Virus record (IMG/VR): IMGVR_UViG_2061766007_000586
Location: 224,001 to 288,000 of that record
Source: a virus
Taxonomy: Duplodnaviria; Caudoviricetes
DNA length: 64,000 nt
Direction: 5' to 3' (one strand)
Of the stretch, positions 590-18,014 are shown piece by piece (the first letter of the stretch is position 1; each line of letters opens with the position of its first letter). Made by a program: the position numbers and the translations under genes. The notes under the pieces were generated by a model that saw nothing but the letters and a program-made list of their open reading frames with translations, did no database searches and was not told the DNA's origin.

Positions 590-597
590 GTTTTATA

Positions 598-1047: not shown

Positions 1048-1090
1048 GACGTTTCTCTCTGCTATTATAGAAATTTAAGAAAAATAAAAA

Positions 1091-1280: not shown

Positions 1281-1311
1281 CTTACTCCGACCCACTAGGA
1301 GTCGGAGTAAG
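1281..1311 (-). terminator. intrinsic terminator after tRNA-Ala
   Basis: 11-bp stem CTTACTCCGAC/GTCGGAGTAAG followed by T-rich run on - strand. Confidence 0.65.
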
Positions 1312-1326
1312 CTGAGGGAGGGGGAA

Positions 1327-1403
1327 TGGTGGACCGTACCAGACTCGAACTGGTGACATCCTGCTTGCAAAGCAGGTGCTCTAGCCAACTGAGCTAACGG
1401 CCC
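1327..1403 (-). tRNA. tRNA-Ala(TGC)
   Basis: cloverleaf, loop TTTGCAA, G3:U70, CCA. Confidence 0.97.
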
Positions 1404-1410
1404 ATAAGGG

Positions 1411-1658
1411 TTTCAGGTCTTAAAGACCAACATCTAAGTCTATAACCCTGACTTAGCATGCGCATGTTTGGCGCAGCGTTGCGACCAATGTCCGGCACGA
1501 CAGTTGGGGTCTGACGCACCTGTAAGATCCGTATTACTTGATAGGAAATCCCCATACGGCACTGAGACACGTAGTAGCTGTGCACTAATCAGCTAACAGA
1601 ACCTATCATGTGCTGACCAACTTTACGTTCGTTTCTACATGATCGTTAAGGCCTGAAA
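1411..1658. ncRNA. ~250-nt multibranch structured RNA candidate
   Basis: 13-bp terminal stem TTTCAGGTCTTAA/TTAAGGCCTGAAA enclosing at least 5 hairpins; GC-rich; fills the gap between two tRNAs. Confidence 0.55.
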
Positions 1659-1659
1659 A

Positions 1660-1734
1660 TGGAGCGCGTAAAGGGAATCGAACCCTTATCATCTGAGTGG
1701 AAGTCAGAAACTCTAGCCGTTGAGCTACACGCGC
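1660..1734 (-). tRNA. tRNA-Gly(TCC)
   Basis: cloverleaf, loop CTTCCAC, U73, CCA. Confidence 0.96.
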
Positions 1735-1748
1735 TTAACAAAATAAAA

Positions 1749-2000
1749 TGGATACAAATAGTCACCAAGATTGCGACCCCTGAACATGAGAGGGACGAGT
1801 CTTAGGAGCTCTCGAGCCTCGCATACTTGTGACGTTTAGTACCTTACCTTGACACTTTCTTCTTCAGCAGGTACTTGGTGATAATGGCGGCTGTTCTGGT
1901 ACGAACCCTAACCTTCTTGTGTAGCGTATTCAGTAATAGCAAGAACACATTACCCTGTCTCAATGAGACACTACATCCGTCTTTTTACTACTTGTATCCA
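1749..2000 (-). ncRNA. ~250-nt structured RNA candidate (paralog of 2190-2437)
   Basis: 14-bp terminal stem TGGATACAAGTAGT/ACTATTTGTATCCA with G-U on - strand; sequence blocks shared with 2190-2437. Confidence 0.6.
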
Positions 2001-2007
2001 AAAATGA

Positions 2008-2079
2008 TAGCGGGGAGGAGAATTGAACTCCTACATTTGGGTTATGAACCCAACCAGCCTTCCGTGGCTGTACCCCGCG
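2008..2079 (-). tRNA. initiator tRNA-fMet(CAT)
   Basis: C1:U72 mismatch, A11:U24, GGG/CCC anticodon stem, loop TTCATAA; followed by TCA rather than CCA. Confidence 0.9.
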
Positions 2080-2092
2080 ATAATATCAAAAA

Positions 2093-2181
2093 TCTCATTA
2101 GGCAAATGATGCCTGCATCAAAACTAACAAACCAATTAATAATTAATAAGTTTAAGTGAATTTTGAAATTGCCTAATGAGA
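2093..2181. ncRNA. stem-closed small RNA candidate
   Basis: perfect 13-bp terminal stem TCTCATTAGGCAA/TTGCCTAATGAGA. Confidence 0.45.
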
Positions 2182-2189
2182 AAGTAAAA

Positions 2190-2437
2190 TGGAAATTAAT
2201 TAGCTAGCATGATTTCGACTGTACGGGAAGGACTGAAGCCTTAGGAGGGTGGTAATACGTCAGTCCAATTCAAAAGTGAACATTTATCACGCATACCTTG
2301 ATCACTTTCTAACCTTTCCGAGCTCTATACGTCTCGCAGTACATACTAGTAAGAGTTTCGCCAGTACGTGAACTCTTGAAACCCCGTCTACAAGTTACCA
2401 CCTTGTAGTTACCTTTCTTTTTACTAACTAACTTCCA
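2190..2437 (-). ncRNA. ~250-nt structured RNA candidate (paralog of 1749-2000)
   Basis: 14-bp terminal stem TGGAAGTTAGTTAG/CTAATTAATTTCCA with G-U pairs on - strand; internal hairpins. Confidence 0.6.
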
Positions 2438-2447
2438 AAATAGGAAA

Positions 2448-2551
2448 TACCTGATGAGTAAAACATGATTAGGTGTGTGGACCTTTTATTCAACCCCATC
2501 TTTGTTAAAAATGGTTAATGTTTTTTCTAATCACACTCTACTCATCAAGTA
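2448..2551 (-). ncRNA. stem-closed small RNA candidate
   Basis: 25-bp terminal stem with several G-U pairs on - strand. Confidence 0.5.
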
Positions 2552-2560
2552 CAAAATGAA

Positions 2561-2624
2561 ATCTAGTTCATAACTTCGACTTCTTTGTACCATCTATATG
2601 GCGGTCTAATAATATAAACTAGAT
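2561..2624. ncRNA. stem-closed small RNA candidate
   Basis: terminal stem ATCTAGTT/AACTAGAT flanked by A-rich linkers. Confidence 0.35.
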
Positions 2625-2633
2625 AAAATAAAA

Positions 2634-2710
2634 TCAACCAGATAGCCATACAACTTAACCCTTTAACACATAAACAATTGTTTTTGTGAAATTTTTTACT
2701 ATCTGGTTGA
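2634..2710. ncRNA. stem-closed small RNA candidate
   Basis: perfect 12-bp terminal stem TCAACCAGATAG/CTATCTGGTTGA. Confidence 0.45.
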
Positions 2711-2713
2711 AAA

Positions 2714-2783
2714 TGGAGCAGGACCTACCAGGCAGCGTATGCATCGCTAAAGAGTCTCCTCTATAACGCCCAATGTGTCCTGC
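2714..2783 (-). ncRNA. 70-nt RNA with tRNA-type acceptor stem and CCA but no cloverleaf
   Basis: GCAGGAC/GTCCTGC + T + CCA; two internal hairpins. Confidence 0.5.
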
Positions 2784-2791
2784 ATGACAAT

Positions 2792-2869
2792 TGGTCGGGG
2801 CAACAGGATTCGAACCTGCGACATCTTGCTCCCAAAGCAAGCACTCTAGCCAGACTGAGTTATACCCCG
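2792..2869 (-). tRNA. tRNA-Pro(TGG)
   Basis: cloverleaf, loop TTTGGGA, CCA. Confidence 0.97.
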
Positions 2870-2885
2870 ATAAAATTCTTAAAAA

Positions 2886-3102
2886 GCACAGAAGAGGATA
2901 GTAAGCTAGCTACCATTCTGTGCCAAGGAGGACTCACCTTCCTCCAGGATTACGACTACGCGGGATTATTCGTAGAAACGTCTACCTTCTAATCTTGATA
3001 ATTTTAGCATCAAGCAACTTCAGTAGCAAGTTAACCTCATACTAGTGTTGTCCTTCTTAGGGCAAGTCGCATCAACACATGAGCTTTTAACTCGATGAGG
3101 TT
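2886..3102. ncRNA. hairpin-dense non-coding element
   Basis: successive stems GCACAGAA/TTCTGTGC, GGAGGA/TCCTCC, CAGGATTA/TAATCTTG, AACCTCAT/ATGAGGTT. Confidence 0.45.
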
Positions 3103-3107
3103 TAAAT

Positions 3108-3183
3108 TGGGTTGGATGATGGGGCTCGAACCCACAACATGCTGAGCCACAGTCAGCCGCTCTACCATTGAGCTACATCCAAC
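3108..3183 (-). tRNA. tRNA-His(GTG)
   Basis: G-1:C73, loop CTGTGGC, CCA. Confidence 0.97.
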
Positions 3184-3188
3184 ATAAA

Positions 3189-3590
3189 TTAATCATCTAG
3201 AAAATCAGGATTATTTTTAATGAATTCTTCATAACCCTGTTCTATAGATTCTTTTTTCTTTTGATCATGTTCACATATTTCAGCTTTTTCTGAACATATG
3301 AAAAAACCACAATTACGTGAACGTATTGTGTCCCAAGCGATTCTTTCTCTTAGCAAATTTGGATTCTTTGCCATTTGTGTTTGGATAGCGAGATTCACTG
3401 CACTACAATCGCCTTTTGGTAAAATTACCAAATTGCTTGCGTCACGATTCCAATCGTTACCATCCACGCGAAATGTATTGTCTCGCCCTTTTACATAAGC
3501 ACCTGTGGCAAGTGCTTCTTTCGGAACATGCTTATTGGCACGTTTCCCATTAAAAGCATTCGCTGGTTTCTTATTCGGTTTGGTAGACAT
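3189..3590 (-). CDS. hypothetical protein
   Basis: 133-aa ORF with AAGGA SD. Confidence 0.7.
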   Translation of the reverse strand: MSTKPNKKPANAFNGKRANKHVPKEALATGAYVKGRDNTFRVDGNDWNRDASNLVILPKGDCSAVNLAIQTQMAKNPNLLRERIAWDTIRSRNCGFFICSEKAEICEHDQKKKESIEQGYEEFIKNNPDFLDD

Positions 3591-3627
3591 AAAGTGATTT
3601 CCTTATTTCAAAAACGGTTATAGAATT

Positions 3628-4206
3628 TTATTTTTTAATTTGAACCCAACTAAAATCTAGATATGTTTTAATTGGTGGTTTTTTGAAATATTCGTCAACA
3701 GCTTTTTTAACACCAAAGACACGTTCAAAACATTTGGCGTTTATGTGTGGATCATTTGGATCAACGTAATCATGTCCTGAGATAATTCCACCAGGTTTTA
3801 CTTTAGGAACATAATTGTTAAGATCACGCTTTGCTGCTTCGTATCTATGATCTCCATCGATATAAATAAAATCAATAGAGTTATCTTCAAATCTGTCTAC
3901 AACTTCTTCAGAGTGTGCTTTTACTTTTTTAATAATGGGGTTCATAAAGTGCTTATAATCAAAAAAGATTTCAGCATATACGATACTGCTATAAGCACAG
4001 CAATCTTTTGGATCATAACCCATTTGCCAAGGATCAATGCAATAAAGTGTTTTAAAAGCGCCACTCTTAACAAACATGCTTGTACTCTCACCAGCATAAG
4101 AACCTATTTCTATACCAATGAGATCTTTCTTTCCTTTTAGATATTCATCTACAAAATCTTGTAGATGACTCATACCTGCTTCACGTTGTGGATATATTAA
4201 ATCCAT
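3628..4206 (-). CDS. class I SAM-dependent methyltransferase (Methyltransf_24-like)
   Basis: EIGSYAGES, IDPW, IYIDGDH, KPGGIISGHDY motifs. Confidence 0.88.
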   Translation of the reverse strand: MDLIYPQREAGMSHLQDFVDEYLKGKKDLIGIEIGSYAGESTSMFVKSGAFKTLYCIDPWQMGYDPKDCCAYSSIVYAEIFFDYKHFMNPIIKKVKAHSEEVVDRFEDNSIDFIYIDGDHRYEAAKRDLNNYVPKVKPGGIISGHDYVDPNDPHINAKCFERVFGVKKAVDEYFKKPPIKTYLDFSWVQIKK

Positions 4207-4226
4207 ATTACTTCTCCTTATTAAAA

Positions 4227-4359
4227 GACCAAAGGTGTGTTTCTACACCAAAAGTTTTCAGGCATGGACTACCATGCTTACTCGATTCGCACAAATCTAC
4301 TCGAGTCATCCAACTACTCCTTAGCTGATGGCTACTTCTAAGCCAACAGTCCTTCAGTC
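4227..4359 (-). ncRNA. mimic of 23S rRNA H43-H44 (L11-binding GTPase-associated centre)
   Basis: TGTTGGCTTAGAAGTAGCCATCA...GTGTAGAAACACAC matches 23S UGUUGGCUUAGAAGCAGCCAUCA...GCGUAAUAGCUCAC; closing stem GACTGAAGG/CCTTTGGTC. Confidence 0.8.
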
Positions 4360-4364
4360 AACAA

Positions 4365-4456
4365 TGGCGGTGAAGGTGGGATTCGAACCCACGGACAGTC
4401 TCTCAACCGTCGCTGCTTTTCAAGAACAGAGCCATAGACCTCTCGACCACTTCACC
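4365..4456 (-). tRNA. tRNA-Ser(TGA)
   Basis: long variable arm, loop CTTGAAA, G73, CCA. Confidence 0.96.
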
Positions 4457-4460
4457 AAAA

Positions 4461-4934
4461 TTATTTATATTTTACATGATGACCATGTATAGATTTTCGT
4501 TCACCACGTGCTACTCGTTCAACACATACAGGAATTAATCCGTAATAACTTGCAAAGTCAGTAGCACTTTCAAATTCTTTTCCTGTATCAAGATCAATAA
4601 CAGGTTTAGAAAAATGATTTTCCTTTCCGTGTTTTCCGTAAAAAGGATTTTTCTCACCTTTTCGAGTTTCTTTTAATTCTTTATTTGATTTTTTAGTATG
4701 ACAACTATGGCAGAGTAATTGACATTTTTGCAATTCTGTTTCAGTTTCTTGTTTTGATCTATTTAGCAGATCACTAATATTAAATCTTTTTTCTACAGAA
4801 TTGATGTGATCAAATTCTAAATGTTCTGTTGATCCGCATTTGACACATTTTCCACCAAGTTTTGAAAGTAATTCATTTCTTCGTTTGTGATAATATTTTC
4901 TACTATAGTTTCGATGATAATCACGATTCATCAT
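4461..4934 (-). CDS. HNH homing endonuclease with NUMOD-like C-terminal DNA-binding motifs
   Basis: CxxC...LEFDH...CQLLCHSCH; GEKNPFYGKH; DTGKEFESA; own TATATTAC promoter at 4972-4979. Confidence 0.88.
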   Translation of the reverse strand: MMNRDYHRNYSRKYYHKRRNELLSKLGGKCVKCGSTEHLEFDHINSVEKRFNISDLLNRSKQETETELQKCQLLCHSCHTKKSNKELKETRKGEKNPFYGKHGKENHFSKPVIDLDTGKEFESATDFASYYGLIPVCVERVARGERKSIHGHHVKYK

Positions 4935-5026
4935 AATACTACTCCTTTGTTTGAGTGTATAAACTATAATAGTAATATATGTTCAAAAAGAAAATGGTAA
5001 TACTTTACCATTCTCTTATCAAAAAA

Positions 5027-5101
5027 TGGCATTCCGACAGGGAATCGAACCCTGATTAATAGACTGAAAATCTACTGTCCTAACCGTTAGACGACCGGAA
5101 C
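5027..5101 (-). tRNA. tRNA-Glu(TTC)
   Basis: cloverleaf, loop TTTTCAG, CCA. Confidence 0.95.
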
Positions 5102-5105
5102 ATCA

Positions 5106-5615
5106 TCATGATTTATTTAACTTAATGATTTTTTCTATGATGCTGGTGGTACTATAACCTTCTTTAAAATCAAGAATTTTAATTTCACACTTAACGGTGT
5201 CCAGTGCGTTCTTTTCTTCTTGATTTAATCCAGCTATATAATCTCCACCTTTTACATAAAAATCTGGATGAAGTTGAAGAATTTCATTTTCACATGTAGG
5301 GGAATCAAAAATAACAACGTGATACACACATGTGAGACTTGCAAGAGCATAAGCTCTATCTTGCTCATTATTGATAGGTCGGTGATCACCTTTTAAAGCT
5401 TTAACCGATTTATCACTATTGAGTAAGACAAATAATTTTCCGAACTTAGCAGCATTGTTGAGAAATTCTAGATGTCCACGATGGAGAATGTCAAAACATC
5501 CATTTGTTAGAACAACTGGAATATTGTCAAAATGAAGACATTCTCGTTCAATGATTGCTCCATCAAGATCAGTAATTGCACCTTTAATGTAATGATCTAG
5601 AATATTATCTGACAT
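5106..5615 (-). CDS. RfaE/HldE domain II-like heptose-1-phosphate adenylyltransferase (cytidylyltransferase family)
   Basis: TNGCFDILHRGH, LNSDKSVKALKG..RPI, KGGDY, GYSTTSII; likely start 5615 because 5642 lies inside the upstream terminator. Confidence 0.88.
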   Translation of the reverse strand: MSDNILDHYIKGAITDLDGAIIERECLHFDNIPVVLTNGCFDILHRGHLEFLNNAAKFGKLFVLLNSDKSVKALKGDHRPINNEQDRAYALASLTCVYHVVIFDSPTCENEILQLHPDFYVKGGDYIAGLNQEEKNALDTVKCEIKILDFKEGYSTTSIIEKIIKLNKS

Positions 5616-5636
5616 AATAGACCTTGAAATAAAAGA

Positions 5637-5668
5637 ATACACTGCATGGGTTTTACCATGCAGTGTAT
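5637..5668 (-). terminator. intrinsic terminator after DUF2828 gene
   Basis: 13-bp stem ATACACTGCATGG/CCATGCAGTGTAT followed by T-rich tail. Confidence 0.75.
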
Positions 5669-5678
5669 AGAATAACGG

Positions 5679-7160
5679 TTAACCAACCGTGATCTTTGCA
5701 TAACGTTCTGCGTTCAGAACGTTAAGCATCATCTCGATTGGCGTATCGGTGATGGCTCTCATCACATTCTTGAAGGATGAAACGGCTTGGCCCGAGCAGC
5801 AGATAGCACCCTTCCTGTCTTTATCGACGTGGAAGGTATCGTGCCTTGACTCTACGTTCCAGAATACGATACCAGGAATCTGGTATCCTTCTTCTTCGAA
5901 ACGTTTCTTGAGAGAATCATAGAACACCCAGTCAGTGTAGCGAGTACCTTCATCGATTTCCATATCGGAAATGATGATGATAGCCTTCGGCATATCTTCT
6001 GGAGCAACATGATGCTCTGTTGCGATCTTGAGAATCTTCTCAAACGCAGCTTCCAGATTTGTCGAACCACCCCAATCATTAGTATTGATACTTTGGAGTT
6101 TCTGAGCGAGCGTCTGACCCTTCAGGTGATGAAGAGTACAGTTCGAAGAGAACGACATCCACAGGTCCTTATAAGGACCTACGTTACGTTCGGCAAAGTA
6201 AATTGCCAAACCAACTGCAGATGCCATAGGACGACCAGCCATACTTCCCGAAGTATCGGCGATTACGATTGCAGACGAATTGCCTACAACGTAGTTCGGA
6301 AGGGACTTCCACTGACCTTCGACGATAGGATCTTCTTCGAAAGTGACCCCATTCCAATCCCATCTTCTTCCTATGTACTTTTCCACAAGATTGTACGGAT
6401 ACAGAGTACCAGCATTGATCTTGGCAGTACCGGCTGTGAGATTCTTGAGATAATCGAAGAAACGATCTCCATCGTGTTTCGGAAATGCCATCTTGTAGCG
6501 AAGCATGGCATGACTCGGAACAGCTTCGTAGTTGATTTCGTTCCAAGTACCATTCGACATGTGTGTTTCCACAATGTTGATGTACTTCCTCAAGCCACGA
6601 AGAAGACGCTTGAACATGCGTACTTCCATTCCGAACTTCAGGGCAGTCATGATGCCAAGTTTACGGGTCTCTTTGGAAGATCCGTCTGGAGTTTTAATCC
6701 ACTTGGCAAGAAGACTTACCGGCTTGTTCTGTCCCATGGCTTCAAGATCAGCCACGAACTGCTTCTTCATCGAAACCCACATATCGTCCTCTAAAGGAGT
6801 TCCGATCAGTGTGTATAAGTCGTCATAACGACCATACTCACCAATCAGATCGATATTGGGTCTGATACATTCCGGGTAGTGCTGGGCAGCATACTTCAGA
6901 ATCTGACGGAATGATTTCCTCTCACCGAGGCCTTCTCTTACATCACGACTGTAAAAGAGGCATCTCGTGGCGAGAAGTTTGTCCTCTGCATAGGCGTCAG
7001 AGAACAGACGTTCGATGCGGGTCTGCTCCGTGTTACGAAGAGCACCGCAGACACTGAAAAAGTCCAGAACTTTACTACCTGTCGTGTTAAGACAGGTAGC
7101 TCCATTTTCGGTGCGAGAGTGGGTTGCTTCCTTTGCGAAAGCGTTTGCAAATGTTGTCAT
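5679..7160 (-). CDS. DUF2828-family Ro60/TROVE-like protein with vWA (MIDAS) domain
   Basis: TENGA, RDVREGLGER, LLAKW; MIDAS DTSGSM...GGSTN...ISDME; FWNV; start 7160 with GAAAGGAG SD. Confidence 0.85.
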   Translation of the reverse strand: MTTFANAFAKEATHSRTENGATCLNTTGSKVLDFFSVCGALRNTEQTRIERLFSDAYAEDKLLATRCLFYSRDVREGLGERKSFRQILKYAAQHYPECIRPNIDLIGEYGRYDDLYTLIGTPLEDDMWVSMKKQFVADLEAMGQNKPVSLLAKWIKTPDGSSKETRKLGIMTALKFGMEVRMFKRLLRGLRKYINIVETHMSNGTWNEINYEAVPSHAMLRYKMAFPKHDGDRFFDYLKNLTAGTAKINAGTLYPYNLVEKYIGRRWDWNGVTFEEDPIVEGQWKSLPNYVVGNSSAIVIADTSGSMAGRPMASAVGLAIYFAERNVGPYKDLWMSFSSNCTLHHLKGQTLAQKLQSINTNDWGGSTNLEAAFEKILKIATEHHVAPEDMPKAIIIISDMEIDEGTRYTDWVFYDSLKKRFEEEGYQIPGIVFWNVESRHDTFHVDKDRKGAICCSGQAVSSFKNVMRAITDTPIEMMLNVLNAERYAKITVG

Positions 7161-7174
7161 AATAAAGCTCCTTT

Positions 7175-7235
7175 CATGACACGTTAAATGCATAAATTTG
7201 CAGTTTATGAAATTGGGTTTGCTGTTAGCGTCACA
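7175..7235 (-). ncRNA. CAGCAA-motif hairpin A, abutting the SD of the DUF2828 gene
   Basis: TGTGACGC-TAACAGCAA...GTGTCATG; inner CATAAA-CTGCAAA-TTTATG. Confidence 0.6.
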
Positions 7236-7244
7236 TTCACTAAA

Positions 7245-7301
7245 CAGGACACGGAATAATAACTAAAAAGTAATTATTTGATTGATTTGCTGGATGTGCC
7301 C
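7245..7301 (-). ncRNA. CAGCAA-motif hairpin B
   Basis: GGGCAC-ATCCAGCAA...GTGTCCTG. Confidence 0.6.
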
Positions 7302-7327
7302 CAATGGTGATAAAGGATCTAAAGAAA

Positions 7328-7579
7328 TAGAAAGAGTAGGATTGGATACCTACATTTCAGCTTGAGGATTGCTTTTTGTTCGAAGTTGCAATCTTACTTC
7401 ACCTAGTTAATCTTCTTGGCGATGGCGCAATACTTACTTTCGCGTAAGCATGCAGTTACACTAGAATTTAATAATAGATAAAGTTTTGTTTGCTGTAAAT
7501 GCCACATACATGACATTCTTCCAAACTTTGTTCTAGTTGATTTACATCTCTATAAATCAACTTATTGAACTATCTTTCT
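7328..7579 (-). ncRNA. expanded tRNA-like RNA 3 (~250 nt)
   Basis: AGAAAGA/TCTTTCT acceptor; TA-GTTC...GAAC D-stem with extra hairpin; GTAGG/CCTAC T-stem; permuted CAGCAA hairpin. Confidence 0.7.
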
Positions 7580-7593
7580 AAAATACGAAAAGA

Positions 7594-7707
7594 TGAGCAG
7601 AGTAGGACTCGAACCTACATTCCGAGATTACTAATCTAAGTATCTTGCAGTTAATGACCTGAGAAGGACATATTTTTACGTGTTCTCTCCTGTTGAACTA
7701 TCTGCTC
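7594..7707 (-). ncRNA. expanded tRNA-like RNA 2 (~114 nt)
   Basis: GAGCAGA/TCTGCTC acceptor; GTTC/GAAC D-stem; GTAGG-TTCGAGT-CCTAC T-arm; anticodon region replaced. Confidence 0.78.
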
Positions 7708-7718
7708 GTAAAGTGAAA

Positions 7719-7765
7719 CAGGACGCATTGATCATTTATTGATGATAAATTGCTGTGAGCGTCCC
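7719..7765 (-). ncRNA. CAGCAA-motif hairpin C
   Basis: GGGACGC-TCACAGCAA...GCGTCCTG. Confidence 0.6.
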
Positions 7766-7771
7766 AGAAAA

Positions 7772-7906
7772 TGGTGGAGAGGGTAGGATTTTCACCTACA
7801 CATAGAAGTCCATTGATCTATTTAATTAAAAATAAATTTGCGGCGAGTGTCACACTGCAACATGACACCACATAAATACTTCTTGCTCTAATTGAGCTAC
7901 CTCTCC
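7772..7906 (-). ncRNA. expanded tRNA-like RNA 1 (135 nt, CCA encoded)
   Basis: GGAGAGG/CCTCTCC-A-CCA; GCTC/GAGC D-arm; AGAAGT/ACTTCT stem enclosing ~70 nt; GTAGG-TGAAAAT-CCTAC. Confidence 0.8.
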
Positions 7907-7954
7907 AAAAGGTACAGTAGAGATATATATAATCGTAATTTATTTGAGTTAAAA

Positions 7955-8031
7955 TGGTACACCAGACGGGGTTCGAACCCATGACCCTCTGCTTAGAAGG
8001 CAGATGCTCTATCCTACTGAGCTACTGGTGC
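7955..8031 (-). tRNA. tRNA-Arg(TCT)
   Basis: cloverleaf, loop CTTCTAA, CCA. Confidence 0.97.
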
Positions 8032-8513
8032 ACATTATCTGATTCTAATGGAGACCTTACGGTTTGTTCAAGTTTAGTGAAAAACAATACTTCAAAACCT
8101 ATTATACCATTTGCGTTTAACCAATCTGCTACTAAATGTCTATGACAAAATTCCATAGGTTTTTCATAGCAAATTAAACATGGTTGTTTTCCGTCAGTTT
8201 TTTCAAGCAATTCTGACATAACTTGTTTTGGATCTAGTTTACCTAAAATTTCTTCATTGAAGCGTTTTGTGTAAATTTCATTATCGTGGTGGTTGAATTT
8301 CCAATCACTGTAAATACTCCAGGAAGGTGCTAGTTTTTTATACTGAATCCCAGAATACCAATCAGGTGCTTTACCACAGATAGAGACAGGAACTATAGAA
8401 CCAGGCATGTTTAGAATATCATTAAGTTTAGCAAAATATGAAGTTCTAAACTCTTGCCATTGAATTTCTTTCCCATTTATAGTAAGTGGCCATATAGGTT
8501 GTAAGTTTGACAT
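8022..8513 (-). CDS. DUF488-family protein
   Basis: LAPS...Y..RF...CLICYEKP.EFCHRHLVADWL; start 8513 with AAGGA SD (the longer ORF begins inside tRNA-Gln). Confidence 0.8.
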   Translation of the reverse strand: MSNLQPIWPLTINGKEIQWQEFRTSYFAKLNDILNMPGSIVPVSICGKAPDWYSGIQYKKLAPSWSIYSDWKFNHHDNEIYTKRFNEEILGKLDPKQVMSELLEKTDGKQPCLICYEKPMEFCHRHLVADWLNANGIIGFEVLFFTKLEQTVRSPLESDNVHQ

Positions 8514-8530
8514 TTTGATTTTCCTTAAAA

Positions 8531-8604
8531 TGGTAGTCCCGTCGGGATTTGAACCCAAACTAACTGGACCAAAACCAGTTGTGCTGCCATTACACCACAG
8601 GACT
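8531..8604 (-). tRNA. tRNA-Gln(TTG)
   Basis: cloverleaf, loop TTTTGGT, CCA. Confidence 0.95.
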
Positions 8605-9091: not shown

Positions 9092-9261
9092 AAATTTTCC
9101 CTATGGTTAGTTAATCTTCAACTGCGAATATATAAACTACACGAGGTAGAGAGATGTTACATGACCCATAACATAATAGTAATATATGTATTAAATAAAA
9201 ATGAAAGAAAAAAGAACCCAGGATTGCTCCTGGGTTTTTCGCCGTTAGGCAGTCGTTTCAG

Positions 9262-9423
9262 TTAGGCAGTGGCTTCAGCCGACTCGTCAGCTTCAGCATT
9301 TTTCTCTGCGTCAGCTGCTTTGTTGGCATCATGTTCCCACTTTTTGCCGATGGCGTAGCAGGTACCAAAGGTACCGATGACTCCGAGGACGACTCCGGCG
9401 GCGAGAATGGCGATGACTTTCAT
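9262..9423 (-). CDS. small membrane protein with N-terminal TM helix
   Basis: AAGGAG SD before ATG 9423; MKVIAILAAGVVLGVIG. Confidence 0.7.
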   Translation of the reverse strand: MKVIAILAAGVVLGVIGTFGTCYAIGKKWEHDANKAADAEKNAEADESAEATA

Positions 9424-9466
9424 AGTTGAACTCCTTATGTTGAGTTGGTTGTTAAAGGCATTTGCC

Positions 9467-9886
9467 TTAGGATTTGTGAATGGCGAGATCAATTCCGACA
9501 GCAGCCGATGCAATCAGAATACCGATCGAGACGAAACCGACTTTGGTCCAGAACGATGTTTTCTTCGGCTGGGCTTCGACAGCAGTCCATATTTCCCAAC
9601 GGAATTTGGCACCGTCGGGAAGCTTGTCAGCACCGAGAGGAAGTCTGGGCCCATCGTACTGGGCCACACAAACCACATCGCCGGGCTTGACTGCCGTAGA
9701 GACACGATTGAAATCCACCTGCTTTCCGAGAAGATCAGAAAGGATCTTGGCGGTGTCTTCGTGGCCGACCACAGAAGTGGCATCTTTCGCCTGAGCTTTG
9801 AAGGTTTCAAGATCAACGATCTTGACGTCGAAGTGCATGTCGTTATGGACCATGCCGGAACTGAAAACGTTGTTGAGGTACTTCAT
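9467..9886 (-). CDS. acrIII-1: AcrIII-1 / DUF1874 (STIV B116-like) cA4 ring nuclease with C-terminal TM helix
   Basis: YLxNxFSxxM, SxxGHxxT, NRV, QxxxxRLxxG motifs as recalled for SIRV1 gp29 and YddF. Confidence 0.85.
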   Translation of the reverse strand: MKYLNNVFSSGMVHNDMHFDVKIVDLETFKAQAKDATSVVGHEDTAKILSDLLGKQVDFNRVSTAVKPGDVVCVAQYDGPRLPLGADKLPDGAKFRWEIWTAVEAQPKKTSFWTKVGFVSIGILIASAAVGIDLAIHKS

Positions 9887-9910
9887 ATTCGAATCTCCTT
9901 ATGTTGTTTG

Positions 9911-10276
9911 TTAAACCGAGTAGAAACACTGATGTATGAGACTTGCGAGATTCCAGTACTTATGGTCTTTGGCAAGTTGTTCTTCGTACTTCAGCTGTTG
10001 ACATTTCTCTGTACGAGAAAGGTTGTTGTTGTGAGTAATTTCCGTTACACGGTTTCTGATCGCTTCTTCGCTGTAGTAATTATCAGCAGTAGAGTTGGTT
10101 TTGCTGTTGGCCGTGATTCCTTTTTCCGCAAGAATACGTTCAACTTCTTCATGAACGAGCTGCTGAAGCATATTTGCAAACTCTTCCTGCTTGCGACGTT
10201 CTTTCATAGTTTCAGCATAATTGTCAAGCTGCTGACCGACTGCGGTGAGGAAAGCATTTGCGAAAGTGTTGTTCAT
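9911..10276 (-). CDS. hypothetical early protein
   Basis: 121 aa, AAGGAG SD. Confidence 0.75.
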   Translation of the reverse strand: MNNTFANAFLTAVGQQLDNYAETMKERRKQEEFANMLQQLVHEEVERILAEKGITANSKTNSTADNYYSEEAIRNRVTEITHNNNLSRTEKCQQLKYEEQLAKDHKYWNLASLIHQCFYSV

Positions 10277-10296
10277 AATCGATACTCCTTATTGAG

Positions 10297-10590
10297 TTAG
10301 TTTTTGGCGATGAAAATTCCACCAGCTATTGCTGCGACTGCGCCGATGACTGCAGTAACACCGAGGGCTGGAAGAACGACGTAGTGAAAAGGATCTTCTT
10401 TACGAAGACGAGCTTTCAAAGTTTTGAGCCTTCTTTTATATATTGCAACATTTTCCATGTAACCAAGAGCAAATTCTTGATCACGGAAACGTTCACAATC
10501 CCGAATGCATTCTTTGATTTTTTCGACTTTGTTAGGAGCGAAGAAGATCTCATTGTCTTCACGAAAGAACTGATCTTTGAAGAATTCCAT
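10297..10590 (-). CDS. tail-anchored membrane protein
   Basis: C-terminal hydrophobic helix, SD. Confidence 0.75.
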   Translation of the reverse strand: MEFFKDQFFREDNEIFFAPNKVEKIKECIRDCERFRDQEFALGYMENVAIYKRRLKTLKARLRKEDPFHYVVLPALGVTAVIGAVAAIAGGIFIAKN

Positions 10591-10605
10591 AAGTGTTCTC
10601 CTTAC

Positions 10606-10854
10606 TTAAGTGTTGTAAGTAATTCCTAAAGCAATAGCACCGATGGCTCCAACAATTGCTAAAACTGTGAGAGCAGAAATGACGTGCTTGGAATGTTCTT
10701 TCAATTCCTTTTCAGCTTTCTGCTTAGCAGCTTCAGCGTCCTGACGAGCAGCTTCGGCTTCTTGAATCAGCTCATTCATAAGATCAGTTGTCCCATTAGG
10801 ATACATCCGATTGATGAGCTCTAACTGGCGTTTACGTCTGTGAGGATTAGCCAT
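10606..10854 (-). CDS. tail-anchored coiled-coil membrane protein
   Basis: C-terminal TM helix; TATATTGC promoter at 10898-10905. Confidence 0.75.
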   Translation of the reverse strand: MANPHRRKRQLELINRMYPNGTTDLMNELIQEAEAARQDAEAAKQKAEKELKEHSKHVISALTVLAIVGAIGAIALGITYNT

Positions 10855-10968: not shown

Positions 10969-11901
10969 ATGCCTAAAAACGGAAAGTACAAGGTTCTCTG
11001 CCTGGTTGGTGGAGGAAAGTTCGGAGCAATCCCTGCTAAATTCTTATCCTACGTTTCTAAGCCAACGGATGATGGGAAAGAAGGTGCTCTGTCTGAAGTT
11101 GACTTCTTATCAGGAACTTCAATTGGTGGTATTTTAGCAGCAGGTTATTCTGCTGGTCATACCTTCAAAGAAGTATCTGAAATGTTCAACAAGAGAGCAA
11201 AAGATTGCTTTGTGAAAAGATGGCAAGCAAAAATTTCACCACTTGCTTGTCCTACTTATAAAGGTGAAGCCTTACGTGAAGTAATTCACGACATTATTGG
11301 TGATCTTACTTTAGGTCAAACCAAAGAAGTTTATCCACATCTTTCTACAGTAATTCCTGCATTGGATCTTACTGCTGACGATTATCTGGTTTTCCAGACA
11401 ATTAAGAAGAATGATAATTGGGATGTTCCTTTGGTTGACGTTGCACAAATGACATCTGCTGCTCAGACATATTTCCCCGGAGTTAACTTCCGAGGTCATT
11501 GTATAGTAGATGCAGGTGTGATCGATGTTCCTTCATTAATCACATGTTCTACATCTGTACGTGGAAAAGGTGGTATTCACTTTGAAGACATGGATGTACT
11601 CTTAGTGGGTATTGGTGATGATAGTAATGCCGCTCATTGCGATCCTATTACACCTGAAAAGTACAACAAGTATACAGTTGTTGAAGTCTTATTAAAGGTA
11701 ATTAGACCTTACCTGACTTTTGGCAATAAACTTGCAACCCTTTATTGGGGAAGACATATGGAATTCAATTCCTTTACGTACTTTAATCCTATTAAAATTT
11801 CCGGTGATCTTGACGATCCGACAGACGTACCGCAACTCATGGATGAGTGTGAAAAATACAAAGACGAGTTTATTCAAACTTGGAATAGCTGGTTAGCTTA
11901 A
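10969..11901 (+). CDS. patatin-like phospholipase
   Basis: GGGKFG, GTSIG, TSAA.TYF, DAG motifs. Confidence 0.88.
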   Translation: MPKNGKYKVLCLVGGGKFGAIPAKFLSYVSKPTDDGKEGALSEVDFLSGTSIGGILAAGYSAGHTFKEVSEMFNKRAKDCFVKRWQAKISPLACPTYKGEALREVIHDIIGDLTLGQTKEVYPHLSTVIPALDLTADDYLVFQTIKKNDNWDVPLVDVAQMTSAAQTYFPGVNFRGHCIVDAGVIDVPSLITCSTSVRGKGGIHFEDMDVLLVGIGDDSNAAHCDPITPEKYNKYTVVEVLLKVIRPYLTFGNKLATLYWGRHMEFNSFTYFNPIKISGDLDDPTDVPQLMDECEKYKDEFIQTWNSWLA

Positions 11902-16271: not shown

Positions 16272-18014
16272 ATGTTTGGTGATATGTTATTTAGCAATAC
16301 ACATAGTGTTGAGCAATTAGTTGATATTAAAAAGAAGAAGAAAGTTGATCGTGTTCTTCTTAAGGTTTTAAAAACTGTACGTTCTAGAGGGAACATTACT
16401 TCTTGGATTAAACCTGAATCTGATTTAAGAAAAGAATTTAATATATCTGATAAAGCAATGAATTCTATTTGTGAAAGCTTGAGTGATTATTATCAGGTGT
16501 CATTAGAATCAGCTTCCTTACGTTCTGTAAAAGACATGGTTCAGTTTATTAAGGCTCATGTAGCGACAGCAGCTGATTCAATTTTCTTAATAGATTCTTC
16601 TACTCTTGATGTTGATGAAGATGGGATAACAGAAGATCCAAATGGACCAAAAGAAAATTTAGAAGTTGATCCTGAAATTGTTAAATCTTCAGAACCAAGT
16701 AATCCTACAGAAGAAAAAGTTCCAGAAGGAACAGAAGTAAGTACTGAAACAACAGACAAAGAAGAATCTACAGAAACACCGAGTCAAGAAATCGCTGATG
16801 TGATTATCGGTGGAGTTGCTTTAGCTGGTATTATTGCATCTGGCATCAAGTTATATAAAGAAAAGAAAATGGCAGATCTTTGTGCTTGGGTAAATGAACA
16901 TTATTCAGAAGTATGTTCTTATATCAAAAGCAAAATGCAAGGATGTGATGCGTTTTATAAAAAGCGTGAGACTCTTTGGAGAGTACAAGATGCAATTGAT
17001 GCAAGTGAATCTAGAATAGATCAGTTAAATAAAATTAAGAGTATGCCTGAACCTCATGCAGGTGAACCACCGAATCTCTATAAAGATCGTTTAAAATCTC
17101 ATTTTGGAGATAAGATGGAAAACCGTATCATGCCAAAGAATCCTGCATATTTAACAATTGATGAAGCTGGTTATTTAGATGCGAGTACTACAAAAGAATA
17201 TGTCAGATCTTTATCGAAAGCTTTTGATTTACAAGATGAAGTTGATCAGAAGATTGATAAAATTCGTCATATCCCTGGTGGAGATAGTATTCGTTATATC
17301 AATGTATTAAGTGATATGAATGTCATGCCTTTCTTACATGCAATGTACAAAGAACAATGGACTGATAATTTCAATGAACATGTTCTGAAAGTTATTGCAG
17401 AAAATGTGAAGAAAGAAGATGTCACAAAATCAGGTGATTCTAGCCAAGAAGCTTATTCAGTTGAAGATATTTCTGTTCCAAAAGAAAAATACAACCTGTA
17501 TAAGAAAATGGAAACACCAGAATCTATTGCTGCAGCTGAAAAGAAAATAGGTTTTACATTTGGAAAACAAACGAAAAACTTATTTCTTCATTTCAATGGT
17601 ATCTATTATGGCACATGGGAATTTATGGATCTTGAAGAAGCTGATGGAAATACACATGCAACATATGAAGCTGATGATCGCTTAAAAGGAAAAACGATTG
17701 ATAAGCTTTTTGTTGCAAGAGATGGTTTTGGAAATTATCTCAGTGTAGATACCAATGATAGAGTCCACATTTATCAGCATGATGCTGAACCTGCTTTTAA
17801 ATCGGAATCAAAACTTCTTGATAATTTCATTAATGAAGATTATAAGAAATATGAGAAGTATAAGAGCAGTAAAAATAAAGATGTTGTTGAAGATCGTGGA
17901 CGTCTTAAAGAAACAAATAAGCTTGGTGCTAAATCTGTTGAATCATTTAGTATGGAGAATTTACAGACTTCTCAGCCTTCTGGAGATTGGGGAAGTATGT
18001 TGAATTCATTCTAA
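16272..18014 (+). CDS. putative head protein with multiple S-x-E sites, ACP-like N-domain and SMI1/KNR4 (SUKH)-like C-domain
   Basis: SVE/SLE/STE/SQE/SME motifs; IAAAEKKIGFTF...NG...ARDGFGNYL. Confidence 0.65.
   Translation: MFGDMLFSNTHSVEQLVDIKKKKKVDRVLLKVLKTVRSRGNITSWIKPESDLRKEFNISDKAMNSICESLSDYYQVSLESASLRSVKDMVQFIKAHVATAADSIFLIDSSTLDVDEDGITEDPNGPKENLEVDPEIVKSSEPSNPTEEKVPEGTEVSTETTDKEESTETPSQEIADVIIGGVALAGIIASGIKLYKEKKMADLCAWVNEHYSEVCSYIKSKMQGCDAFYKKRETLWRVQDAIDASESRIDQLNKIKSMPEPHAGEPPNLYKDRLKSHFGDKMENRIMPKNPAYLTIDEAGYLDASTTKEYVRSLSKAFDLQDEVDQKIDKIRHIPGGDSIRYINVLSDMNVMPFLHAMYKEQWTDNFNEHVLKVIAENVKKEDVTKSGDSSQEAYSVEDISVPKEKYNLYKKMETPESIAAAEKKIGFTFGKQTKNLFLHFNGIYYGTWEFMDLEEADGNTHATYEADDRLKGKTIDKLFVARDGFGNYLSVDTNDRVHIYQHDAEPAFKSESKLLDNFINEDYKKYEKYKSSKNKDVVEDRGRLKETNKLGAKSVESFSMENLQTSQPSGDWGSMLNSF

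What the first reader, a model, noticed from the sequence alone, without database searches (positions are those of the whole stretch)
9467..9886. Membrane-tailed AcrIII-1 ring nuclease in a phiKZ-like phage
Seen: DUF1874 motifs including the catalytic GH, NR and RL, plus an extra C-terminal hydrophobic helix (VGFVSIGILIASAAVGIDLAI). The Glu of the usual RLxEG is Leu. Established: AcrIII-1 degrades cA4, characterised members are soluble, and nucleus-forming phages remain vulnerable to type III CRISPR. Inference: anchoring may place it beside membrane cA4 effectors such as Cam1/Csx23, and the Glu loss may shift it toward a sponge.
Basis: partly seen in the sequence, partly recalled or inferred. 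Interest (0 to 1): 0.7.

Follow-up and report, generated by a model that had tools for sequence, protein, structure and literature searches.

The report
Membrane-anchored AcrIII-1-like protein, rumen jumbo phage
A giant phage from the ruminant gut carries a copy of a known viral anti-CRISPR enzyme (one that destroys the cA4 alarm signal) that has lost one helper residue and gained a membrane-anchor tail, a combination not described before.

Summary
ORF 9467-9886 (-) encodes a 139-aa protein. It matches Pfam PF08960 (DUF1874/AcrIII-1) above the curated cut-off. Its model folds like SIRV1 gp29 bound to cA4 (PDB 6SCF).

It keeps the catalytic His (H42) and six of the eight listed cA4-contact side chains. 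It has Leu where about 90% of relatives have the mobile-loop Glu (E88). It ends in a 21-residue, non-amphipathic hydrophobic helix followed by only three residues, so it looks tail-anchored.

The tail is real. It is kept in five sequence variants, and RNA-library contigs from cattle and sheep gut cover the gene. Of 292 family proteins fetched, only this small clade has a C-terminal membrane helix. One unrelated 361-aa protein has two helices N-terminal of the domain.

A tree shows the Glu-to-Leu change came first, in tail-less sisters, and the tail came later. The gene lies in an operon of small membrane proteins beside the tRNA island of a 318.6-kb phage with phiKZ-type RNA polymerase and virion genes. 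No nuclear-shell or tubulin gene was detectable.

Best reading: a membrane-tethered, probably slowed, cA4-removing anti-type-III-CRISPR protein. This is a new variant of a known kind. Activity, membrane insertion and host are untested.

The parts
9467..9886 (-). Whole gene: 139-aa DUF1874/AcrIII-1-family protein with a C-terminal membrane anchor
   Evidence: ORF; Pfam PF08960 above cut-off; fold match to 6scf
9578..9886 (-). Residues 1-103: DUF1874 core domain. Strands at 2-5, 18-24, 71-78 and 94-103; helices at 26-33 and 43-53. The mobile lid loop is about residues 79-93.
   Evidence: AF2 blocks for residues 1-100 have pLDDT 82-98; profile alignment to 2x4i and 6scf
9761..9763 (-). Codon of H42, equivalent to the catalytic general acid H47 of SIRV1 gp29
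   Evidence: Alignments; nearly invariant column; role of H47 from 10.1101/778746 (passages)
9635..9637 (-). Codon of L84 (CTC), at the position of the conserved lid Glu (E88 in SIRV1 gp29, E536 in Csx1-Crn2)
   Evidence: Sequence read directly; alignment; column counts; E536A effect in PMC11317161 (passages)
9542..9577 (-). Residues 104-115: variable, Lys-rich linker ending in a Phe-Trp interfacial motif (EAQPKKTSFWTK)
   Evidence: Most variable stretch among the five variants, with one indel
9479..9541 (-). Residues 116-136: predicted transmembrane tail-anchor helix. Only His-Lys-Ser and the stop codon follow it (9467-9478).
   Evidence: KD 2.24; Eisenberg mean hydrophobicity 0.77, moment 0.11; 3 Lys/Arg before the helix against 1 after; AF2 helix 112-130; conserved in P0001-P0003 and L001
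9895..9900 (-). Shine-Dalgarno AAGGAG, 8 nt upstream of the ATG. The motif CAACATAAGGAG recurs before the next gene at 9431-9442.
   Evidence: Sequence read directly
9262..9423 (-). Co-transcribed 53-aa protein with an N-terminal membrane helix and an acidic C-terminal tail. It has the same raised GC and is the conserved neighbour in L001.
9215..9236 (-). Intrinsic-terminator-like hairpin (9 pairs, then a T-run) that closes the operon just after the 53-aa gene
9911..10854 (-). Upstream genes of the same strand block. A 121-aa soluble protein at 9911-10276 is absent from L001. Two small proteins with C-terminal membrane helices lie at 10297-10590 and 10606-10854.

Best explanation
The gene encodes a membrane-tethered member of the AcrIII-1/Crn2 (DUF1874) ring-nuclease family.

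Proposed mechanism:
- The N-terminal 103 residues form the usual dimeric fold, which clamps one cyclic tetra-adenylate (cA4) between two subunits under a mobile lid.
- The C-terminal helix inserts after translation into the host inner membrane. Because only three residues follow it, it acts as a tail anchor and leaves the catalytic domain in the cytoplasm.
- Made from an accessory operon of small membrane proteins, the protein removes the cA4 that a host type III CRISPR system produces when it sees phage RNA. cA4-activated effectors therefore stay off.
- The lid Glu that orients the catalytic His is replaced by Leu, so turnover is probably slower than in canonical AcrIII-1. High-affinity binding would then do more of the work.
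- The anchor most likely serves to concentrate and pre-dimerise the protein on a surface, or to fix its location. It is less likely to shield particular membrane effectors.

Shown here: family membership by sequence and fold; retained His and contact residues; loss of the Glu; a conserved hydrophobic tail; the operon context; presence in RNA libraries.

Inferred: dimerisation, cA4 binding and cleavage, membrane insertion and topology, anti-CRISPR role, and the purpose of the anchor.
For: Family and fold: PF08960 at 30.6 bits against a cut-off of 26. Profile hits to all four solved family members. AF2 pLDDT 88.4, with top Foldseek hits 6scf, 2x4i, 2j6b, 2j85 and 8y7f/8y7g.

Active site: the residues listed for SIRV1 gp29 (N8, S11, H47, T50, R66, Q81, R85; 10.1101/778746, passages) align with N6, S9, H42, T45, R61, Q76 and R81. 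All of these lie in invariant or nearly invariant columns.

Lid Glu: E536A (equivalent to E88) 'markedly diminished' ring-nuclease activity in Csx1-Crn2 (PMC11317161, passages). The inactive H47A protein still binds cA4 at about 25 nM (PMC7213978, passages).

Tail: KD 2.24, Eisenberg 0.77 with moment 0.11, and 3 Lys before against 1 after the helix. It is kept in five variants while its sequence drifts. In P0003 about half of the tail residues differ yet all stay hydrophobic, and an acidic residue is retained near the end.

Context: the same-strand block of small membrane proteins ends at a terminator. The order up3, up2, DUF1874-TM, 53-aa gene is kept in L001.

RNA libraries: contigs cover the whole gene in 2 of the 4 runs laid (X1 as one 1,200-nt contig over 9278-10476; X3 over 9401-9930). 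They cover its 3' part in a third run (X4). X2 covers only the neighbouring gene.

Precedent: AcrIII-1 is the commonest phage ring nuclease, found in 36 of 28,114 phage genomes (PMC12409355, passages).
Against: - No activity, binding or localisation data exist.
- The lid Glu shown to matter for catalysis is missing.
- Two further contact positions differ: N13 to G11 and S49 to D44. Both variants are common in the family, though: Gly in 22 of 115 and Asp in 92 of 115.
- The host is unknown, so it is not known that it has a cA4-signalling type III system.
- RNA-library contigs do not prove transcription, because DNA can be present in such libraries (note).
- Membrane prediction rests on hydropathy scales only, not on a trained predictor. 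A crude Hessa sum for the best 19-mer is +2.05 kcal/mol because it includes Asp133.
- The clade is tiny: the window, L001 and P0001-P0003.
- A preprint questions the in-vivo anti-CRISPR role of SIRV1 gp29 in its native system (10.1101/2023.01.10.523387, abstract start seen in the listing).
Confidence: 0.55

Rival explanations
1. Membrane-tethered cA4 sponge. The protein binds cA4 tightly but hardly cleaves it, and works by sequestration alone.
For: The lid Glu is lost, and E536A markedly diminished cleavage. H47A AcrIII-1 still binds at about 25 nM, tighter than Csx1 at 130 nM. Some Csx15 proteins act mainly as cA4 sponges (PMC13148439, passages). The gene's GC3 of 0.60 is like that of a few other GC-rich genes, including the major head gene region, which could reflect high expression (speculative).
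Against: The catalytic His and all phosphate-contact residues are retained. About 24 of 270 relatives lack the Glu, and one of them is a Csm6-HEPN fusion where a slow timer makes sense. Type III systems make about 1,000 cA4 per target RNA, and sponging is judged possibly 'fruitless' against them. The Leu predates the tail.
Confidence: 0.15
2. cA4-gated membrane device. Ligand-driven lid closure is passed through the last strand and the linker to the membrane helices, and changes membrane integrity or signalling. Possible uses are phage-controlled lysis timing, superinfection exclusion or hijacking of an abortive response. On this reading the protein is a sensor rather than a signal remover.
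For: [quoted passage not shown] Here that C-terminal element runs straight into the linker and the membrane helix. The membrane helix has small-xxx-small spacing and a conserved Asp/Glu. The gene is co-transcribed with other small membrane proteins. Membrane proteins gated by cA4 exist: Csx23, Cam1 and Cap1.
Against: One helix per subunit (two per dimer) is little for a pore. The linker is the most variable part and has an indel, which argues against a rigid mechanical coupling. No benefit to a phage is evident. There is no precedent in the family.
Confidence: 0.08
3. Exapted domain. The DUF1874 fold is kept, but the ligand or role has changed (another nucleotide, or a protein partner). The protein would be one more member of this phage's set of small tail-anchored membrane proteins, acting on the envelope or on early infection structures.
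For: The scan of 304 crude ORFs found 11 tail-anchor-like ORFs; DUF1874-TM itself is not among them, because that scan took a spurious opposite-strand ORF in its place. Two of the 11 are immediately upstream. A long branch (0.44) leads to the tailed clade. Changes near the ligand site in the clade: NAFSLNM to NVFSSGM, E to L, and T87 to D.
Against: Seven of the nine listed cA4-contact or catalytic side chains (H47 included) are retained. No other ligand is known for the family.
Confidence: 0.15
4. A recently acquired passenger gene with no present function; the tail is a neutral read-through extension.
For: GC 0.52 against a gene mean of 0.369 +/- 0.053. The region is variable: the 121-aa gene is absent in L001.
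Against: The open frame, the tail's hydrophobicity and the flanking Lys pattern are kept across variants down to 75% identity. Changes between the window and L001 in the core are 5 synonymous to 1 non-synonymous. The gene has a strong SD site and appears in RNA libraries.
Confidence: 0.05

Closest known systems
AcrIII-1 (SIRV1 gp29; PDB 2X4I, 6SCF) and the viral homologues AFV3-109 and STIV B116
   Same: Pfam family and fold. Catalytic His. Contact residues N, S, T, R, Q and the lid Arg. Small viral protein.
   Different: Only 21-24% identity. Lid Glu replaced by Leu. The domain ends in a beta-strand (94-103) rather than the archaeal C-terminal helix. A 36-residue linker plus membrane helix is added. 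The solved chains are 109-138 aa with no hydrophobic tail.
Bacterial/phage-type DUF1874 proteins, such as that of Thermoanaerobacterium phage THSA-485A, and the tail-less metagenomic sisters P0246, P0004 and P0005
   Same: 38.5% identity to THSA-485A, whose predicted structure is the best viral match (TM 0.90 normalised to the target). The sisters are 58-67% identical. P0004 and P0005 already have RLPLG.
   Different: All are 102-103 aa and stop right after the last strand. They have no linker and no membrane helix.
Crn2 domain of Csx1-Crn2 (PDB 8Y6Z, 8Y7F, 8Y7G) and other DUF1874 fusions
   Same: Same domain used as a fused module. The loop Glu (E536) was tested by mutation. Some HEPN fusions (P0019) also lack the Glu.
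   Different: Those are cellular, CRISPR-encoded, self-limiting effectors. The fusion partner is a soluble nuclease, not a membrane anchor.
MAD, the membrane-associated DHH-DHHA1 nuclease of Sulfolobus that degrades cA4
   Same: A cA4-degrading enzyme located at the membrane. Seen as one passage in the review PMC8284326; the primary paper was not read.
   Different: Unrelated fold (DHH). Cellular, not viral. Described there as non-specific.
Membrane cA4 receptors Csx23, Cam1, Cap1 and Chp1
   Same: A cytoplasmic cA4-binding domain joined to membrane helices (abstracts and passages).
   Different: They are host defence effectors with CARF or Csx23-type sensor domains and several helices or tetramers. 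None has a DUF1874 domain.
P0085, an uncharacterised 361-aa metagenomic protein
   Same: The only other DUF1874 protein with membrane helices among the 292 fetched. It also lacks the lid Glu (RLDVG).
   Different: Two helices (88-114 and 119-144) lie N-terminal of the domain. It has about 110 extra residues, a GC-rich style of sequence and an independent origin.

Membership tests
DUF1874 / AcrIII-1 / Crn2 (Pfam PF08960) | Sequence match to the family model above the curated threshold | tested here: met
   30.6 bits against a cut-off of 26, E 3.8e-7. The same result came from the six-frame search of the genome, which found a single copy.
DUF1874 / AcrIII-1 / Crn2 (Pfam PF08960) | The family's alpha/beta fold | tested here: met
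   AF2 core pLDDT of 95 or more for most blocks. Foldseek gives 6scf at E 5.5e-8 and 2x4i with TM 0.81 normalised to the target. All hits with E <= 0.001 that the output lists belong to this family (12 of the 15 are listed).
DUF1874 / AcrIII-1 / Crn2 (Pfam PF08960) | Catalytic general-acid His (H47 of SIRV1 gp29) | tested here: met
   H42 aligns with H47. His holds this column in 114 of 115 relatives.
DUF1874 / AcrIII-1 / Crn2 (Pfam PF08960) | cA4-contact side chains N8, S11, N13, S49, T50, R66, Q81 and R85 | tested here: met
   Six of eight are kept: N6, S9, T45, R61, Q76 and R81. N13 becomes G11 and S49 becomes D44, both common variants in the family.
DUF1874 / AcrIII-1 / Crn2 (Pfam PF08960) | Conserved lid Glu (E88 / E536) that positions the His | tested here: not met
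   L84 (CTC at 9635-9637). Glu is present in 101 of 115 and in 242 of 270 relatives. It is not universal: about 24 of 270 lack it.
DUF1874 / AcrIII-1 / Crn2 (Pfam PF08960) | Homodimer with one cA4 bound at the interface | not testable with these tools
DUF1874 / AcrIII-1 / Crn2 (Pfam PF08960) | Cleavage of cA4 to A2>P | not testable with these tools
   Needs a biochemical assay.
Anti-CRISPR (AcrIII-1 in the functional sense) | Encoded by a virus and neutralises type III CRISPR immunity in vivo | tested here: inconclusive
   Viral origin is shown: a 318.6-kb phage. Inhibition is untested and the host is unknown.
Tail-anchored inner-membrane protein | A single hydrophobic helix within about 10-12 residues of the C-terminus, non-amphipathic, with a cytoplasmic N-terminal domain | tested here: met
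   Helix at 116-136 of 139 residues. KD 2.24; Eisenberg 0.77 with moment 0.11; Lys/Arg 3 before and 1 after. Actual insertion was not tested.
phiKZ-like / nucleus-forming jumbo phage (Chimalliviridae) | Split multisubunit RNA polymerases and phiKZ-type virion genes | tested here: met
   phrog_2987, 2962, 2986 and 3233 (RNAP beta pieces); phrog_3231 major head; phrog_3242 sheath; phrog_3014, 2926 and 3004.
phiKZ-like / nucleus-forming jumbo phage (Chimalliviridae) | Chimallin nuclear-shell protein (and PhuZ tubulin) | tested here: not met
   There was no hit with phiKZ gp54, phrog_4795, PF25677 or PF00091 in the whole genome. None of the 111 ORFs scanned against PHROGs matched phrog_4795. None of 20 unannotated ORFs of 436-643 aa had a weak Pfam hit to a chimallin or tubulin family. 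Divergence could hide a shell protein.

The most novel reading that the evidence does not exclude
The protein is not a plain signal eraser. It is a membrane-embedded cA4-binding device. With the Glu gone, cA4 stays bound long enough for the closing lid, which runs directly into the linker and membrane helix, to change how the helices pack with each other or with the co-transcribed 53-aa membrane protein. The phage would then sense the host's CRISPR alarm at the membrane, or hold the signal there as a tethered sponge. This would be the first membrane-bound anti-CRISPR acting on a second messenger, and the first DUF1874 domain used as a sensor.
Probability: 0.15. Interest if true: 0.8.

Novelty: new variant of a known kind. 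Interest (0 to 1): 0.5.

Why it matters
The solved members of the AcrIII-1/Crn2 family are small proteins without a hydrophobic tail. My literature searches found no membrane-anchored member, and no exact phrase for a membrane-bound ring nuclease or anti-CRISPR. One review passage does mention a membrane-associated DHH-family nuclease (MAD) that degrades cA4.

This clade offers a natural series of three steps: Glu with no tail (P0246), Leu with no tail (P0004/P0005), and Leu with a tail (this phage). That series lets two questions be tested directly:
- How much does the lid Glu contribute to turnover compared with binding?
- Does the cellular location of a signal-degrading enzyme matter for defeating soluble versus membrane cA4 effectors?

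It also adds a likely type III counter-defence gene to a very divergent lineage of rumen jumbo phages with phiKZ-type genes. Because their mRNA stays exposed in the cytoplasm, RNA-sensing CRISPR is one of the few defences expected to work against such phages.

Tried and rejected
Dimer geometry and the relative direction of the two tails are therefore unknown.
- Near-identical DNA in the phage collection: none.
- Relatives in viral contigs: none confirmed. In metagenome contigs: one locus only, L001.
- ESM Atlas: no usable hit.
- Source of the tail inside the genome: tblastn with residues 101-139 found only itself. The next hits had E of 2 or more.
- The 53-aa neighbour and the 97-aa upstream protein against the phage collection: no match.
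- GC-rich islet as proof of horizontal transfer: rejected as proof. About a dozen other stretches of the genome, including the major-head gene region, are equally GC-rich.
- My idea that relatives with Pro at the Glu column merely have the Glu shifted by one position: rejected. Only 1 of the 9 (P0056, RLEPG) has Glu just before it.
X2 covers only the neighbouring gene. Parts without cover mean nothing.
- The Nature version of the AcrIII-1 paper could not be fetched under the id I tried. The statement about E88 in AcrIII-1 itself therefore rests on PMC11317161's citation of it. E88 does not occur in the preprint.
- Chimallin and tubulin searches: negative. The control panel for phrog_4795 also rang nowhere, so that particular search is uninformative.
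Full report
WHAT IS THERE

The ORF at 9467..9886 on the minus strand is real. It is 139 codons long, from ATG to TAA. An AAGGAG ribosome-binding site lies 8 nt upstream.

It matches Pfam PF08960 (STIV_B116-like, i.e. DUF1874) at 30.6 bits against a curated cut-off of 26 (E 3.8e-7, residues 3-74). It also matches phrog_5063 (E 4.6e-13). It is the only copy in the genome.

By sequence alone it finds the solved viral proteins AFV3-109, STIV B116 and SIRV1 gp29. A profile of 112 family members (alignment A1) finds all four solved family sequences at E 5e-18 to 4e-13.

An AlphaFold2 model built on A1 has mean pLDDT 88.4. Foldseek against the PDB puts 6SCF (SIRV1 gp29 H47A with cA4) first at E 5.5e-8. 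Next come 2X4I, 2J6B, 2J85 and the Csx1-Crn2 structures. After these family hits the next match has E 0.53. In the viral structure library the best match is the DUF1874 protein of Thermoanaerobacterium phage THSA-485A. That protein is also the best tblastn hit among 50,697 phage records (38.5% identity; 8 records hit, none covering 80% of the query).

THE ACTIVE SITE

The founding paper (10.1101/778746; passages read) names H47 as the general acid; H47A lowers catalysis more than 2,500-fold. It names R85 as the lid lock, and N8, S11, N13, S49, T50, R66 and Q81 as side-chain contacts to cA4.

In the alignments these correspond to H42, R81, N6, S9, G11, D44, T45, R61 and Q76. So the His, the lid Arg and five further contacts are kept. 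Two positions differ, but with residues that are common in the family (Gly in 22 of 115, Asp in 92 of 115).

The real departure is in the lid. SIRV1 'RLEEG' and the family consensus 'RLPEG' read 'RLPLG' here. That puts Leu 84 (CTC, 9635-9637) at the place of E88. Glu holds this column in 101 of 115 relatives of 160 aa or less. This count used 120 of the 154 proteins then in hand and excluded the query clade. By a motif count it is present in 242 of 270.

The Csx1-Crn2 structural paper (PMC11317161; passages read) says this Glu (E536, 'corresponding to E88 in AcrIII-1') may stabilise the imidazole of the catalytic His. It also reports that E536A 'markedly diminished' ring-nuclease activity.

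The Glu is not unique in being absent, however. About 24 of 270 relatives carry P, V, L, A, K or D there (one of these regex matches, P0022, is at a wrong place). Among them is P0019, a DUF1874 fusion to a Csm6 HEPN domain.

THE TAIL

Residues 116-136 (VGFVSIGILIASAAVGIDLAI) have these properties:
- Kyte-Doolittle mean of 2.24 over 19 residues.
- Eisenberg mean hydrophobicity of 0.77 with a hydrophobic moment of only 0.11, so the helix is not amphipathic.
- The model shows a helix at 112-130 with pLDDT about 75.
- A Lys-rich linker ending in Phe-Trp precedes it, with three Lys in the 12 residues before.
- Only His-Lys-Ser follow it.

Established knowledge on tail-anchored proteins says that a helix this close to the C-terminus leaves the ribosome only at termination. 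It must therefore insert post-translationally. The positive-inside rule then predicts a cytoplasmic N-terminal domain. That topology is my inference, not a test. A crude sum on the Hessa scale is +2.05 kcal/mol for the best 19-mer, because it includes Asp133. The neighbours' anchors give -0.1 to -1.6.

The tail is not an assembly artefact. The same architecture is present in P0001 (96% identical), P0002 (86%), P0003 (75%) and the metagenome contig L001. In P0003 about half of the tail residues differ, yet all remain hydrophobic, and an acidic residue is kept four residues from the end of the helix. Between the window and L001, the core has 5 synonymous and 1 non-synonymous differences. The linker has three replacements and one codon deletion. 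The membrane helix has one Ile/Val change.

HOW RARE IS IT, AND HOW DID IT ARISE?

The family is large. There are 1,650 representatives at E <= 0.001 in the 50%-identity library, and 4,399 proteins at E <= 1e-5 among 8,000 candidates in the 90% library. Only the best 150, 120 and 23 rows of three searches could be seen, which gave 292 different proteins.

Among these proteins:
- 13 of 154 reach a KD19 of 1.6 or more. Only P0001-P0003 have the segment at the C-terminal end after the domain.
- The one other strong case is P0085 (361 aa), with two helices N-terminal of the domain.
- The remaining nine are borderline (1.62-1.78). They lie inside the domain or inside long fusions.
- None of 116 further proteins has such a segment.
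- None of the 23 'longer' proteins has one.

Membrane-linked DUF1874 proteins among the roughly 1,500 or more unseen relatives cannot be excluded.

A maximum-likelihood tree of 40 rows (the query plus 39 chosen from the 292) gives a nested, well-supported series:
- P0246 (Glu, no tail) lies outside a clade with 100/98 support.
- That clade holds P0004 and P0005 (Leu, no tail) and the tailed clade (Leu, tail; 100/100).
- A branch of 0.44 leads to the tailed clade.

So the Glu was lost first and the tail was added later. The tail-coding DNA has the same raised GC as the core (0.50 against 0.52) and has no paralogue in the genome. Its source is unknown. DNA of the tail-less sisters could not be fetched.

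CONTEXT

The window is bases 224,001-288,000 of a single 318,604-bp virus record, which CheckV estimates as 100% complete. Its GC is 36%.

The genome carries phiKZ-type hallmarks:
- four PHROG families of split RNA-polymerase beta pieces (2987, 2962, 2986, 3233);
- the phiKZ-type major head protein (3231), sheath (3242), and prohead protease and virion proteins (3014, 2926, 3004);
- split DNA polymerase.

Identity to cultured phages is only 21-27% for the sheath.

No nuclear-shell protein or tubulin was found by protein, PHROG or Pfam searches. So 'phiKZ-like' is fair, but 'nucleus-forming' is unproven.

An anaerobic ribonucleotide reductase fits a ruminant-gut phage. So do the animal-gut records of the ten RNA runs that hold parts of the region. 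Earlier notes of this scan said the same.

The gene lies 860 bp from the last tRNA of a ten-gene tRNA island, in a minus-strand block. In transcription order the block reads:
- an 82-aa and a 97-aa protein, each with a C-terminal membrane helix;
- a 121-aa soluble protein;
- the DUF1874-TM gene;
- a 53-aa protein with an N-terminal membrane helix and an acidic tail;
- a hairpin-plus-T-run terminator at 9236-9215.

L001 keeps this order but lacks the 121-aa gene and has a different upstream neighbour. A patatin-like phospholipase gene is transcribed divergently. Tail-anchor-like small proteins recur in this genome: 11 of 304 crude ORFs, to which the present gene must be added, because my crude caller replaced it with a spurious opposite-strand ORF.

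Contigs from RNA libraries cover the whole gene in X1 and X3 and part of it in X4. X1 has one 1,200-nt contig spanning 9278-10476, which joins four genes. X3 covers 9401-9930 with 0-1 differences. X2 covers only the 53-aa gene. DNA carry-over cannot be excluded, so this is weak support for expression.

MECHANISM

The best-supported reading (0.55) is a membrane-tethered AcrIII-1-type protein that removes cA4 from the cytoplasm and so blunts type III CRISPR signalling. Turnover is probably slowed by the missing Glu.

Inactive AcrIII-1 still binds cA4 at about 25 nM, tighter than Csx1 at 130 nM (PMC7213978, passages). Binding would therefore contribute to the effect. A type III complex makes about 1,000 cA4 per target RNA (same paper), and a 2026 paper considers sponging possibly 'fruitless' against such output (PMC13148439, passages). 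For that reason I rank a pure sponge lower (0.15).

I think it is weak physically, because cA4 diffuses freely (inference). Concentrating and pre-dimerising the protein on a surface, or simply fixing its location, seem likelier purposes.

A bolder possibility (0.08) comes from the geometry. In SIRV1 gp29 the lid 'and subsequent alpha-helix' move on ligand binding. Here the equivalent C-terminal element runs straight into the linker and the anchor. Ligand binding could therefore be transmitted to the membrane. The variable linker, with its indel, argues against this.

COMPARISON AND NOVELTY

It works like, and by sequence and fold belongs to, the AcrIII-1/Crn2 family. It fails one family feature (the lid Glu) and adds one that no solved or published member has (a membrane anchor).

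The literature searches gave the following:
- 'ring nuclease' with transmembrane, membrane and cyclic tetra-adenylate terms returned only papers on membrane effectors and reviews.
- 'DUF1874' with 'transmembrane' returned two listed papers. One is the Cap1 preprint; I read the only passage in it that mentions DUF1874, and that passage lists a DUF1874-like ring nuclease in the Cap1 type III locus without any statement that it is membrane-bound. The other is a 2017 survey of structured RNAs, seen only in the listing.
- Six explicit phrases for membrane-bound ring nucleases or anti-CRISPRs returned nothing.
- 'AcrIII-1' with 'jumbo phage' returned 8 papers, 6 of them listed. I opened two of them (PMC11014256 and PMC13148439). 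In those two, 'jumbo phage' occurs only in the reference list. The others were seen only as listings.

A membrane-associated cA4-degrading nuclease of a different family (MAD, DHH-DHHA1) is mentioned in a review (PMC8284326, passage).

I rate this a new variant of a known kind. It is of moderate interest, mainly because the natural three-step series makes the roles of the Glu and of location directly testable.

Noticed in passing
window 10969-11901 (+): A patatin-like phospholipase gene (PF01734, E 7.9e-18) is transcribed divergently from the small-membrane-protein operon. In L001 a different 463-aa gene occupies that side.
   Followed up: partly
window 52522-60348 (-): A single 2,608-aa ORF combines acetyltransferase-like, helicase (phrog_62) and phrog_3921 regions. 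Its last about 220 residues match a phiKZ-type RNA-polymerase beta piece (phrog_3233, E 2e-63).
   Followed up: no
window 500-8604 (-): Ten tRNA genes (Ser x2, Ala, Gly, Met, Pro, His, Glu, Arg, Gln) are interleaved with an HNH endonuclease, a methyltransferase, a cytidylyltransferase-like gene, a VWA/DUF2828/DUF7788 protein (phrog_850) and a DUF488 gene. The DUF1874 operon starts 860 bp beyond the last tRNA.
   Followed up: partly
whole genome G000:C1, e.g. 30887-31258, 71639-71899, 154577-155080, 262122-262553, 313201-313398: Eleven ORFs end in a single hydrophobic helix within 12 residues of the C-terminus. Many have a charged coiled-coil-like N-terminal part and Gly/Ala/Ile/Val-rich anchors. 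Some (154577-155080, 313201-313398) are also among the most GC-rich genes.
   Followed up: partly
G000:C1:191373-192764 (L014:4373-5764, -): A DHH-family phosphoesterase (phrog_4771, E 3.6e-35). Enzymes of this family degrade short linear or cyclic oligonucleotides, so it could act downstream of, or in parallel with, the DUF1874 protein.
   Followed up: no
window 9911-10276 (-) versus L001: The 121-aa gene between the 97-aa gene and the DUF1874 gene is absent from the related contig L001, where only 20 bp separate the two. This is a presence/absence polymorphism inside the operon.
   Followed up: partly
G000:C1:73736-76132 (L007:5736-8132, -): An NrdD-like anaerobic ribonucleotide reductase fused to a thioredoxin-like domain. 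This suggests an anaerobic host.
   Followed up: no
BFVD hits: Several paralogous uncharacterised proteins of Erwinia jumbo phages (vB_EamM_Kwan, phiEaH2) give weak DUF1874-like structural matches (E 1.6e-4 to 0.1, TM about 0.5, 8-17% identity). They may be a diverged fold family in cultured jumbo phages.
   Followed up: no
window 16272-18014 (+): A 580-aa protein with a C-terminal SUKH/SMI1-KNR4 domain (PF09346, E 2e-7), a domain typical of immunity proteins.
   Followed up: no
P0085 (metagenomic protein, 361 aa): An independent membrane-embedded DUF1874 architecture: two helices, then about 110 residues, then the domain. It also lacks the lid Glu (RLDVG).
   Followed up: partly
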